From NCBI RefSeq assembly GCF_009914755.1, contig NC_060936.1: a stretch of DNA of 64,000 nucleotides; one strand, written 5' to 3'. The translations under genes and the position numbers were made by a program. Below the pieces are notes generated by a model. That model searched no databases. It was given only the letters and a program-made list of their open reading frames with translations, and had not been told where the DNA came from. The number at the start of each line of letters is the position of its first letter. The first letter of the stretch is position 1. Source of the DNA: the human T2T-CHM13v2.0 reference genome, Homo sapiens. Of the stretch, positions 19,980 through 21,482 are shown in pieces.

Positions 19980-21482
19980 GACATTTCGGTTCTGATGAAC
20001 TGAAGTTGATTTTAGTAGACACTCATGTAGTTCAATTGATTATGGAGTGGATTGAGTTCTATTTCTTAAGGAGACAGAAGACAAGCTGCTGAATGATTTT
20101 TATCCCACTATCCCCTGAAATACAATATATTTTTCAGCCTCTTTCTCAATGAAAAGGAAAGTGCCTCCTCTTTTCCTTTATTTTCCCTTATTTTATTTTG
20201 TCTGGAGGTGACAGGGGGTTACAAATTACAGACCTCAACTGAGTGCTGTGGCTCACCCTGAAATCCCAGCACTTTGGGAGGCCGAGGCTGAAGGATGGTT
20301 TGAGGCCAGGAGTTCACAATCAGGTGGGCAACGTAGACCCTGTCTCTACAGAATTAAAAAAAATTAGCTAGGTGTGGTGGTGTGCACCTGTGGTCCCAGC
20401 TACTTGGGAGGGTGAGTCAGCAGGATTGCTTGAGCCCAGGAGTTTGAAGTTGCAATGAGCTGTGATTGCACCACTGCACGCCAGCCTGGGTGACAGAGCA
20501 AGACTCTGTCTCTTTAAAAAAGAAAAAAAAAATAGGCTGGGCATGGTGGCTCACACCTGTAACCTCAGCACTTTGAGAGGATGAGGTGGGCAGATCACTT
20601 GAGCTCAGGAGTTTGAGACCAGCCTGGACAATGTGGCAAAACCCTGTCTCTACAAAAAATACAAAAATTAGCCAGGTGTGGTGGTGTGTGCCTGTTGTCC
20701 CATCTACTCTGGAGGCTGAGGTGGGAGGATCACTTGAGCCCAGCAGGTCAAGGCTGCAGTAGGCTATAATTGTGCCACTGCACTCCAGCCTGGGGTACAG
20801 AGTGAGACTCTGTCTCAAAGAAAATAGTAGTAATAAAAGAAATAAATTACAGACCTCAGTATTCTGTATAATTTGTGAAGCTTTACTATTTTTCAGTTTT
20901 AACTGACTGAAGAGTCCTTGCTTTAAATGGAGATACAAGGAAAATATAGCATATGGAACCTTTGTTAAACAGTTACCCACGTGTAACAGTTTAAAAATTC
21001 TTTAGAGAATAATATTAATTACAGTTATAAAAGCACAGTGGAATATAATGACTAATATGTGGAATTAATCCACTATCTATGAGCCATTACTATAACTTAC
21101 TATGTTAGGTACTAAGGATACAATCATGAGTAAGATTTAATCTCTGCCCTTGAAGAGTTCATAGCGTAGTGGGAGAAAAAAGAAGTTGCAAAAAAGAACA
21201 ACAAAAGTGTAATAGTAAAATGTACCAAGTGCTAGCATAGGCAACAACTCTTTCTGGCAAAACTTGTTAAAGCATTACAAAAGAGAACCTTACTAGTTAA
21301 GAGTTCTGTAAAATGATCACAAATGATTGACTACTATATATCCAGTGGTGTGGGGATGTGGGGGTTCTATTTCTTAAGAAGACAGAAGACAAGCTGCTGA
21401 ATGACATTTCGGTTCTGATGAACTGAAGCTCATTTTAGTAGACACCCATGTAGTTCAATTGATTATGCAGTGGATTGAGTTC
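19980..21482 (+). repeat. Paired 115-bp duplication, circularly permuted (19980-20096 and 21364-21482)
   Basis: Manual alignment, 5 mismatches. Confidence 0.92.
20238..20843 (+). mobile_element. Two head-to-tail AluJ elements
   Basis: Alus at ~20238-20532 and ~20535-20843; TSD aaattacagacctca flanks the pair. Confidence 0.88.

What the first reader, a model, noticed from the sequence alone, without database searches (positions are those of the whole stretch)
19980..21482. Circularly permuted 115-bp duplication: footprint of a re-integrated DNA circle
Seen: copy 1 (19980-20096) reads X-Y and copy 2 (21364-21482) reads Y-X. X = gacatttcggttctgatgaac...ggattgagttc; Y = gttctatttcttaag...gctgctgaatga. 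Copy 1 is bounded by a repeated GA that appears once at the Y/X junction of copy 2 (gaatGAcatttc). Copy 2 is bounded by a repeated GTTC that appears once at the X/Y junction of copy 1. Removing the redundancy leaves exactly 115 bp in both, with 5 substitutions, no poly(A) and no recognisable TE. Known: microDNA-type extrachromosomal circles are roughly 100-400 bp and often close at short direct repeats. Inference: one copy formed a circle at a microhomology and re-integrated ~1.4 kb away after opening elsewhere, 1.3-2.8 kb upstream of the TSS. Two-step template switching (MMBIR or Pol theta) would give the same product.
Basis: partly seen in the sequence, partly recalled or inferred. Interest (0 to 1): 0.85.

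Follow-up and report, generated by a model that had tools for sequence, protein, structure and literature searches.

The report
Permuted local duplication inside a patchwork insertion
A 115-base stretch upstream of TMEM117 was copied about 1.3 kb away in rotated order as part of a small patchwork insertion at a hairpin-forming TA-rich site, an old neutral DNA-repair scar of a kind that has already been described.

Summary
Copy 1 (19980-20096) reads X-Y and copy 2 (21364-21482) reads Y-X. Both reduce to one 115-bp unit with 5 substitutions, and CHM13 holds no other copy.

New findings:
- Copy 2 is directly preceded by a 21-nt perfect inverted copy (21345-21365) of 22288-22308. That 21-mer occurs exactly twice in the genome.
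- The block 21345-21510 is flanked by a 10-nt direct repeat (21335-21344 and 21511-21520; chance about 0.3%).
- The site is a TA-rich quasi-palindrome.

Copy 2 is therefore most likely the derived copy. It sits inside a 166-bp composite insertion built from at least three local templates in one microhomology-mediated, synthesis-dependent repair event (MMBIR-like). A 115-nt circle is neither shown nor excluded. The exact one-unit length favours a circle-like or unit-length template, while the inverted filler and the flanking repeat favour template switching.

I found no remnant of a tandem array, no TE family and no sign of an RNA intermediate. No outgroup genome was available, so the polarity is inferred.

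Circularly permuted (AB to BA) germline insertions are already described: a 2026 preprint, large segmental duplications (2020) and cattle. This is a small, old member, roughly 20 My (range 7-55), with no evidence of function.

The parts
19980..20096 (+). Copy 1, order X-Y (X 19980-20059, Y 20056-20096, sharing GTTC 20056-20059). It starts and ends with GA. Inferred donor.
   Evidence: No flanking repeat longer than GA and no filler at its edges.
20223..20858 (+). Two head-to-tail Alu elements in the spacer, flanked by a perfect 15-nt target-site duplication (20223-20237 and 20844-20858). Without them and one copy of the duplication, the spacer is 646 bp instead of 1267 bp.
   Evidence: masked 20332-20853; the 15-mer occurs 2 times in the window. 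The order of these insertions relative to the duplication is unknown.
21335..21344 (+). Left copy of the 10-nt direct repeat TATATATCCA. It ends exactly where the inverted 21-mer starts. Candidate target-site duplication.
   Evidence: The 10-mer occurs 2 times on the + strand and 0 times on the - strand in 64 kb. 0.32% of 5000 dinucleotide shuffles of the right flank contain it. The empirical recurrence rate is 296 of 62000 positions (0.48%).
21345..21365 (+). 21-nt inverted templated filler. It is the perfect reverse complement of 22288-22308, and its last two bases (GT) overlap the first two bases of Y'.
   Evidence: 21 of 21 to the reverse complement of 22288-22308; 21 of 22 to that of 25070-25091; of 9 genome places within 1 mismatch, the 2 exact ones are these two.
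21364..21404 (+). Y' (copy of 20056-20096, 40 of 41 identical).
21403..21482 (+). X' (copy of 19980-20059, 76 of 80 identical). It is joined to Y' through a shared GA (21403-21404).
21483..21510 (+). 28-nt tail with no identifiable template. It contains a perfect 18-nt palindrome (21484-21501). It is either the last piece of the insertion or original target sequence.
   Evidence: self-complementary match 21484-21501. (1 place in the genome at up to 3 mismatches, itself). (hairpin).
21511..21520 (+). Right copy of the 10-nt direct repeat. It lies in a second TA hairpin (21509-21526).
22288..22308 (-). Template of the inverted 21-mer, 922 bp downstream of the insertion. It lies inside the 199-bp segment 22187-22385.
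25070..25091 (-). Alternative template for the inverted filler (21 of 22, one base longer). It lies in the older paralogous segment 24975-25167.

Best explanation
Copy 2 is the derived copy. It is the central part of a 166-bp composite insertion (21345-21510) at the centre of a short TA-rich quasi-palindrome.

The inferred sequence of events is as follows.
1. The palindrome broke, or stalled a replication fork, at its loop.
2. A free 3' end ending in the 10-mer at 21335-21344 was extended by a low-processivity polymerase that switched templates several times at 0-2-nt microhomologies.
3. It first copied 21 nt from the opposite strand 0.9 kb downstream.
4. It then copied Y (41 nt) from 1.3 kb upstream, or about 0.65 kb if the Alus are younger.
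5. After a jump back at a shared GA, it copied X (80 nt).
6. It then added a 28-nt TA-rich tail.
7. It re-annealed 10 nt behind its departure point, which duplicated the 10-mer.

This is an MMBIR/FoSTeS-type (or synthesis-dependent alternative end-joining) templated insertion.

Shown: the pieces, their templates, their order and overlaps, the flanking repeat and the hairpin potential. Inferred: the polarity, that it was a single event, the enzyme class, and the nature of the Y-X template. On that last point I give about even odds to two options. One is the linear donor with one backward jump. The other is a closed 115-nt circle derived from X-Y, copied once around, with the polymerase stopping when it ran into its own primer. 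That would explain the length of 115 + 4 nt.

No function is indicated. It is most likely a neutral scar about 20 My old (range 7-55).
For: - The permuted match is real and unique in the genome.
- The 21-mer at 21345-21365 abuts Y' with a 2-nt overlap. It is the exact reverse complement of 22288-22308. Of 9 places in 3.1 Gb within 1 mismatch, the only 2 exact ones are these. A further place is the paralogue at 25070-25090. The reversed control pattern gave 3 places.
- A 10-mer that occurs only twice in 64 kb brackets the block, and its left copy ends exactly at the left junction. Chance is 0.32% by shuffling and 0.48% empirically.
- The right flank folds into two hairpins (dG -7 kcal/mol, z -2.85, 3 of 200 shuffles as good). 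The inferred empty site folds into a 13-bp imperfect hairpin with the break in its loop.
- Two of the three resolvable junctions have 2-nt microhomology, GT and GA.
- Copy 1 has no filler and no flanking repeat beyond GA.
- Zero differences in the 21-mer and in the 10-mer fit the same age as 5 of 115 (P = 0.39 and 0.64).
- These features match the published description of MMBIR: complex events, 2-5-bp microhomology, inverted pieces, low-processivity synthesis with multiple template switches (abstract of PMC2621351). They also match the passages of PMC8421209 on nearby inverted templates, several templates and quasi-palindromes.
- Suggestive only: at 4 of the 5 differences copy 2 carries C on the + strand, which this model makes the newly synthesised strand (uncorrected P about 0.016, post hoc).
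Against: - No outgroup genome could be consulted, so polarity and single-event status rest on junction anatomy alone.
- The right copy of the 10-mer is not anchored to a templated piece. The 28-nt tail has no template, so it could be original target sequence and the repeat a 0.3% coincidence.
- Free template switching on a linear donor does not predict that X' ends within 0-4 nt of where Y' began. I estimate that coincidence at a few per cent (my rough estimate, not computed). This is the main point in favour of a circle or other unit-length intermediate.
- The inverted template is 922 bp away, whereas the MMBSearch signature uses templates within 100 bp.
- The left junction has 0-1 nt of microhomology. 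A 2-nt overlap alone is unremarkable (P of 2 or more = 0.16).
- The C bias does not survive correction for the 8 ways it could have been seen.
Confidence: 0.6

Rival explanations
1. A double-stranded 115-bp microDNA circle formed from one copy by closure at a microhomology (GA). It was opened at GTTC and physically ligated into a break about 1.3 kb away by end joining. The 21-mer and the tail are filler added during joining, or are unrelated.
For: - The derived copy covers the donor exactly once (115 nt plus a 4-nt overlap), which physical insertion of a linearised circle gives by construction.
- The overlap is 4 nt, and P of 4 or more by chance is 0.016.
- A 2026 preprint attributes 82 of 327 source-resolved polymorphic human insertions with AB-to-BA order to eccDNA, and shows integration of a reporter circle in the mouse germline (abstract and sections 7, 29).
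- Large human segmental duplications with the same flip are attributed to circular intermediates (PMC7450558 Discussion).
Against: - No circle can be observed in a reference sequence.
- The templated inverted filler shows that copying from local templates took place at this very junction, so one mechanism can explain all the pieces without a ligated circle.
- A 115-bp duplex circle is shorter than the persistence length of DNA and is strongly strained (recalled).
- The unit is 36.5% G+C with one CpG, unlike the GC-rich origins reported for microDNA (recalled).
- A free circle should insert in either orientation. Here, and in 79 of 80 intrachromosomal cases in the preprint, the orientation matches the source.
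Confidence: 0.2
2. Reversed polarity. Y-X at 21364-21482 is ancestral and X-Y at 19980-20096 is the inserted copy, made from a circle closed at GTTC or by template switching. The 21-mer and the 10-nt repeat next to copy 2 come from independent events at a fragile TA palindrome.
For: The permutation is symmetrical, so the junction overlaps (GA, GTTC) fit either direction. TA-rich hairpin sites could break repeatedly.
Against: It requires a genome-unique 21-nt inverted copy to land by chance exactly at the edge of an unrelated duplicated segment, with a 2-nt overlap, and also requires a bracketing 10-mer. Copy 1 shows no filler, no flanking repeat beyond GA and no structure-prone target.
Confidence: 0.1
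3. Transient tandem dimer. X-Y first duplicated in tandem at the donor site (X-Y-X-Y, junction at GA). A contiguous Y-X stretch spanning the junction was copied into the break. The array later collapsed back to one unit.
For: It explains the Y/X junction and needs no circle. Each step is common (established knowledge). It is compatible with all junction data.
Against: It needs three steps. It still does not explain why the copied stretch is exactly one unit long. Tandem Repeats Finder reports no array with a period near 115 in 19000-22500 (11 rows), and no second unit is left at the donor.
Confidence: 0.05
4. Remnant of an ancestral 115-bp tandem array or of a repeat or TE family that was split by insertions and trimmed.
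Against: - There are no further copies in CHM13.
- The 646 bp of non-Alu spacer are unique sequence, not an identifiable insertion.
- The spacer and flanks score no better against a unit dimer than their shuffles in 8 of 8 comparisons. At best, 58 of 200 shuffles reach the observed score.
- There is no TRF array.
Confidence: 0.02
5. RNA-mediated copy of a circular RNA or lariat (back-splice or branch junction = the Y/X junction) inserted by LINE-1 machinery.
For: The 10-nt flanking repeat is in the size range of LINE-1 target-site duplications (recalled). The region is intronic for long TMEM117 isoforms (annotation supplied with the finding).
Against: There is no poly(A) on either strand. An AG (19979-20080 region, at 19979-19980) precedes the unit, but no GT follows its end at 20095-20097, so back-splicing signals are incomplete. 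X does not begin with GT, as a lariat junction would require (all read). The inverted 21-mer comes from a separate site.
Confidence: 0.01

Closest known systems
AB-to-BA ('eccDNA-mediated') germline insertions in human long-read structural-variant calls (bioRxiv 10.64898/2026.09.03.749254; abstract and sections 7, 9, 29 read)
   Same: Cyclic shift of block order relative to a unique nearby source, same chromosome, same orientation, non-repetitive, microhomology at the ends.
   Different: This one is fixed in the reference and old (4.3% diverged; longest exact block 26 nt), so their 50-nt exact-seed screen would not find it. It is embedded in a larger composite with an inverted filler and a flanking repeat. 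Counted over the whole 166-bp insertion, the permuted part covers only 119 of 166 nt. Their Table S2 (sizes and distances of the 82 cases) is a supplement and could not be seen.
Circular-intermediate segmental duplications (PMC7450558; abstract and Discussion read) and the cattle colour-sidedness translocations (cited there as ref. 15; otherwise recalled)
   Same: A-B to B-A flip with 1-2-bp microhomology at the fusion point and small scars reminiscent of MMBIR at the integration point. The authors also say NHEJ and MMBIR/FoSTeS cannot be told apart from breakpoints.
   Different: Scale is 115 bp here against large segmental duplications (the cattle case is recalled as hundreds of kb). Distance is about 1.3 kb here against distant loci.
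MMBIR/FoSTeS templated insertions (PMC2621351 abstract; PMC8421209 passages)
   Same: Several short pieces copied from nearby templates in direct and inverted orientation, 2-nt junction microhomologies, a quasi-palindromic site, and return close to the departure point.
   Different: Templates are 0.9-1.3 kb away rather than within 100 bp. Two pieces tile the donor exactly once in rotated order, which the model does not predict.
microDNA (recalled: Shibata et al. 2012)
   Same: The size is at the low end of the reported range. There is a short direct repeat (GA) at the ends of the source segment.
   Different: The source is AT-rich (36.5% G+C) and not at a CpG island or exon. No circle was observed.

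Membership tests
AB-to-BA permuted insertion class (criteria of the 2026 preprint, section 29) | [quoted passage not shown] | tested here: met
   Y' then X' against X then Y. The source span is 117 bp, on the same strand.
AB-to-BA permuted insertion class (criteria of the 2026 preprint, section 29) | At least 95% source coverage and at least 95% coverage of the inserted allele, with 5% or less block overlap | tested here: inconclusive
   Source coverage is 115 of 115, and overlap is 4 of 119 nt. Coverage of the inserted allele is 119 of 119 if the insertion is only Y'X'. It is 119 of 166 if the composite 21345-21510 is the allele.
AB-to-BA permuted insertion class (criteria of the 2026 preprint, section 29) | Unique source; not a TE, simple repeat or VNTR | tested here: met
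AB-to-BA permuted insertion class (criteria of the 2026 preprint, section 29) | 50-nt perfect-match seeds; polymorphic in the population call set | tested here: not met
   The longest exact block is 26 nt. Polymorphism is not testable here. The 4.3% divergence argues for an old, fixed allele.
Re-integrated extrachromosomal circle (microDNA/eccDNA) | Existence of a covalently closed circle with the Y/X junction | not testable with these tools
   It cannot be seen in a reference sequence. Only the permutation and the exact unit length are indirect support.
Re-integrated extrachromosomal circle (microDNA/eccDNA) | The inserted copy contains each donor base once, give or take end processing | tested here: met
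   115 nt plus a 4-nt overlap (GTTC).
MMBIR/FoSTeS templated insertion | Complex event: two or more template switches, with pieces in direct and inverted orientation from nearby DNA | tested here: met
   An inverted 21-mer, Y' and X' from three template positions within 1.4 kb. Feature list.
MMBIR/FoSTeS templated insertion | Microhomology of about 2-5 bp at junctions | tested here: inconclusive
   GT (2 nt) and GA (2 nt) at two junctions, 0-1 nt at the left junction, and the right junction is unresolvable. P of 2 or more per junction by chance is 0.16.
MMBIR/FoSTeS templated insertion | Inverted template within 100 bp (MMBSearch operational signature) | tested here: not met
   The template is 922 bp away. 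Criterion.
Transposable element or retrocopy | Many dispersed copies; poly(A) or terminal repeats | tested here: not met
   There are two copies only and no poly(A). A 10-nt flanking repeat is present but is not specific.
Tandem repeat / minisatellite remnant | Residual periodicity of the unit in the spacer or flanks | tested here: not met
   0 of 8 comparisons exceed their shuffles. No array with a period near 115 among 11 TRF rows.

The most novel reading that the evidence does not exclude
The Y'X' piece was copied, not ligated. A repair polymerase that had already switched templates once (the inverted 21-mer) primed with 2 nt on a 115-nt circle derived from X-Y and went round exactly once. 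It stopped after displacing about 4 nt of its own primer, then moved on.

If so, this locus is a fixed germline footprint of a microDNA used as a repair template. It would also suggest that the AB-to-BA insertions now attributed to eccDNA integration are in general products of template switching onto small circles. That would explain both their exact unit length and their junction fillers.
Probability: 0.25. Interest if true: 0.6.

Novelty: new member of a known kind. Interest (0 to 1): 0.4.

Why it matters
On its own this is a neutral scar with no sign of function. It overlaps no annotated element and no Rfam family.

Its value is mechanistic. It is a very small, cleanly resolvable example of a circularly permuted local insertion. 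One junction carries an unambiguous templated inverted filler, and the target is a hairpin-forming TA palindrome. Cases like this can discriminate between two accounts of the recently reported AB-to-BA class: ligation of free circles, or template-switching synthesis. A census that records donor coverage, orientation and junction fillers would settle the question.

The composite insertion also lies 1.3 kb upstream of the TMEM117 CpG promoter. That locus carries at least one further, older local duplication, so the region may be prone to such events.

Tried and rejected
- TE or multi-copy family: rejected. Searches gave only the two local copies, plus one unrelated 89-nt, 78% chr5 match to 21098-21186.
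- Decayed tandem array: rejected.
- Longer inverted homology around the 21-mer: none. The local alignments stop at 21 or 22 nt, and word-7 BLAST gave nothing more.
- Template for the 28-nt tail: none in the genome at up to 3 mismatches. The only 11-mer matches in the window are two chance AT-rich ones.
- Structured RNA: 0 Rfam matches in 19800-21700.
- circRNA or lariat retrocopy: rejected by reading the splice signals.
- Left flank alone (21325-21345): it does not fold.
- Search for other permuted pairs: 1 of 14 low-copy HSPs sets in the 64-kb window, namely this pair. There were 0 in twenty further 10-kb tiles of chr12 (200,000 bases, 28 low-copy dispersed HSPs). 264 kb is far too little to estimate a genome rate.
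- Outgroup comparison: not possible, because no primate genomes are reachable with these tools.
- Alu subfamily dating of the spacer: not attempted. It would have needed consensus sequences from memory.
- The bias toward C in copy 2 (4 of 5 differences): noted, but not significant after allowing for post-hoc choice.
- Papers seen only as search listings: PMC11161834, PMC13645644, 10.1101/2022.06.22.497135, PMC5453318. Sakofsky 2015 was seen only as a title in a reference list. Shibata 2012 and the details of the cattle paper are recalled.
- Supplements are closed. Table S2 of the 2026 preprint, which may list sizes, distances or this locus, was not seen.
- The statement that small fixed permuted insertions with inverted filler are not described rests only on the searches. 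It is therefore weak.
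Full report
**Observation.**
- Copy 1 (19980-20096, 117 nt) reads X-Y and begins and ends with GA.
- Copy 2 (21364-21482, 119 nt) reads Y-X and begins and ends with GTTC.
- X (19980-20059) matches 21403-21482 at 76 of 80 positions. Y (20056-20096) matches 21364-21404 at 40 of 41.
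- Rotated into register, both are 115 nt and differ at 5 positions.
- Against the whole 3.1-Gb assembly the two pieces score E 2.1e-27 and 1.9e-10, so this is not chance.
- The copies lie 2825 and 1323 bp upstream of the annotated TSS at 22805.

**Not a repeat family and not a decayed array.**
- Searches of CHM13 with the 117-mer, with 19300-20235 and with 20860-21700 return only the two local copies. The one exception is an unrelated 89-nt, 78% match on chr5 to 21098-21186. The tool warns that matches in closed regions are hidden and that its counts are lower bounds.
- The only masked repeat of 100 bases or more between 18591 and 24045 is 20332-20853. This is two Alus flanked by a perfect 15-nt target-site duplication (20223-20237 and 20844-20858).
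- The other 646 bp of the 1267-bp spacer are unique sequence.
- A dimer of the unit aligns to the spacer and flanks no better than to their shuffles in 8 of 8 comparisons.
- Tandem Repeats Finder reports nothing with a period near 115 (11 rows).

- *An inverted filler.* Directly left of copy 2, at 21345-21365, sits a 21-mer that is the perfect reverse complement of 22288-22308, 922 bp downstream. Its last two bases (GT) are also the first two bases of Y'. A genome-wide pattern search allowing 1 mismatch found 9 places, and the only 2 exact ones are these two. Five one-mismatch places form a cluster on chr4, one is on chr11, and one is at window 25070-25090. The reversed control pattern gave 3 places.
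- *Why there is a third copy at 25070-25090.* The segment 22187-22385 has an older direct paralogue at 24975-25167 (89% over 199 nt), also confined to this locus. That paralogue matches the filler at 21 of 22 positions, one base further to the left. Either segment could have been the template.
- *A flanking direct repeat.* The 10-mer TATATATCCA ends exactly at the left edge of the filler (21335-21344) and recurs at 21511-21520. It occurs nowhere else on either strand of the 64-kb window. Only 0.32% of 5000 dinucleotide shuffles of the right flank contain it. The empirical rate of such a recurrence in the window is 296 of 62000 positions.
- *A tail and a structure-prone site.* Between X' and the second 10-mer lie 28 nt (21483-21510) that include a perfect 18-nt palindrome. 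They have no other match in the genome at up to 3 mismatches. As single-stranded DNA, 21478-21535 forms two hairpins (-7 kcal/mol, z -2.85). The inferred empty site, with 21344 joined to 21521, forms a 13-bp imperfect hairpin with the junction in its loop.

**Anatomy.** The most economical reading is a 166-bp composite insertion (21345-21510) flanked by a 10-nt duplication. It consists of:
- the inverted 21-mer;
- Y' (41 nt);
- X' (80 nt);
- a 28-nt tail.

The junction overlaps are 0-1 nt (10-mer to filler), 2 nt GT (filler to Y') and 2 nt GA (Y' to X'). The X'-to-tail junction cannot be resolved. Copy 1 has no filler, no flanking repeat longer than GA and no structure-prone target. I therefore take copy 1 as the donor and copy 2 as derived. 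This polarity is an inference, because no outgroup genome is reachable with these tools.

**Mechanism.** Several short pieces copied from templates within 1.4 kb, in direct and inverted orientation, joined at 2-nt microhomologies at a quasi-palindrome, with a return a few bases behind the departure point: this is the published description of MMBIR/FoSTeS-type templated insertion (abstract of PMC2621351; passages of PMC8421209). The fit is not perfect.
- The inverted template is 922 bp away rather than within 100 bp.
- One junction has 0-1 nt of microhomology.
- A 2-nt overlap has a chance probability of 0.16 per junction.

X' ends (donor position 20059) within 0-4 nt of where Y' began (20056-20058), so the donor is covered exactly once. 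Free template switching on a linear donor does not predict this. I put the coincidence at a few per cent, which is a rough estimate and was not computed. GTTC occurs three times in the donor (19989, 20030, 20056), so a microhomology-guided exit would raise the chance to about one in three. However, the next piece has no known template against which to test that idea.

A physically inserted linearised circle gives the exact length by construction. So does a polymerase that copies once around a small circle and stops at its own primer. So, with more steps, does a transient tandem dimer. I therefore commit to the composite, single-event, synthesis-dependent repair model (0.6) and leave the nature of the Y-X template open at about even odds within it. 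I keep physical circle ligation as the main rival (0.2), followed by reversed polarity (0.1), a tandem intermediate (0.05), an ancestral array or TE (0.02) and an RNA route (0.01).

**Age.** Five differences in 115 nt give a Jukes-Cantor distance of 0.045. At 1.0e-9 substitutions per site per year (a recalled long-term primate rate) that is about 22 My. The Poisson range is 7-55 My. Zero differences in the 21-mer and in the 10-mer are compatible with the same age (P = 0.39 and 0.64). Four of the five differences have C in copy 2 on the + strand. This is reminiscent of error-prone synthesis but is not significant after allowing for post-hoc choice. If it is real, the age is an upper bound.

**Comparison with what is known.**
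- A 2026 bioRxiv preprint (10.64898/2026.09.03.749254; abstract and sections 7, 9 and 29 read) reports that 82 of 327 source-resolved polymorphic human insertions have AB-to-BA order. Of those 82, 80 are intrachromosomal. Of those 80, 79 are in the source orientation. 23 of the 82 have terminal microhomology of 5 bp or more. The authors attribute them to eccDNA.
- Chicote et al. 2020 (PMC7450558; abstract and Discussion read) describe the same flip in large segmental duplications. They state that NHEJ and MMBIR/FoSTeS cannot be told apart at the breakpoints, and they cite the cattle precedent.
- The present case matches the class in cyclic order, unique nearby source, same strand and microhomology. 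It differs in being small, old and fixed, and in carrying an inverted templated filler, a flanking repeat and a palindromic target.
- The near-total orientation bias in the preprint is, in my reading, easier to reconcile with copying than with free circles. That is my inference, not theirs.
- Their Table S2 is a supplement and could not be seen.

**Function.** Nothing indicates one. The copies overlap no annotated functional element; the nearest are silencers at 22480-23278. There is no Rfam match, and the unit is 36.5% G+C with one CpG.

**Verdict.** This is a new, well-resolved member of a known kind of event. Its interest is moderate and mechanistic.

Noticed in passing
window 22187-22385 and 24975-25167: A 199-bp direct duplication (89% identical, 2.8 kb apart) brackets the TMEM117 CpG-island promoter and exons 1-2. 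Both copies start in a TG-rich tract, and there is no other copy in CHM13. It is older than the X/Y event, and it contains the template of the inverted 21-mer.
   Followed up: partly
window 28411-28582 and 29626-29797: A 172-bp direct repeat pair (86% identical, 1.2 kb apart). A core of about 55 nt has weak matches (82-85%) on chr9 (two), chr22 and chr7. These are probably two fragments of an old interspersed repeat.
   Followed up: partly
window 12232-12353 and 13623-13743: A low-copy direct match (78% over 127 nt, 1.4 kb apart) seen in the window self-BLAST. Its origin was not examined.
   Followed up: no
window 20223-20858: Two Alu elements head to tail share one perfect 15-nt target-site duplication (20223-20237 and 20844-20858), so they entered as a pair or one entered the tail of the other.
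   Followed up: partly
window 22069-22227: An imperfect TG/TA-rich microsatellite-like tract lies just upstream of the promoter. It has a shorter counterpart at 24961-25017.
   Followed up: no
window 25697-25759: Three tandem copies of a 21-nt unit: two identical and one at 76%.
   Followed up: no
window 32259-32637, 46751-46919, 56462-56865: A low-copy family with three members in the window at 78-89% identity. Probably an interspersed repeat; not examined.
   Followed up: no
window 34767-34919 and 51597-51910: Short tandem arrays with periods of roughly 50 and roughly 110-120 nt, seen as offset self-matches.
   Followed up: no
window 21098-21186: An 89-nt, 78% match to chr5:56355988-56356076 (minus strand) lies inside the otherwise unique spacer. 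Possibly an ancient repeat fragment.
   Followed up: no
window 21429, 21431, 21446, 21468: At four of the five differences between the copies, copy 2 carries C on the + strand, and two of the changes are G/C transversions. Uncorrected P is about 0.016 and it is post hoc. It could reflect error-prone synthesis at the time of copying.
   Followed up: partly
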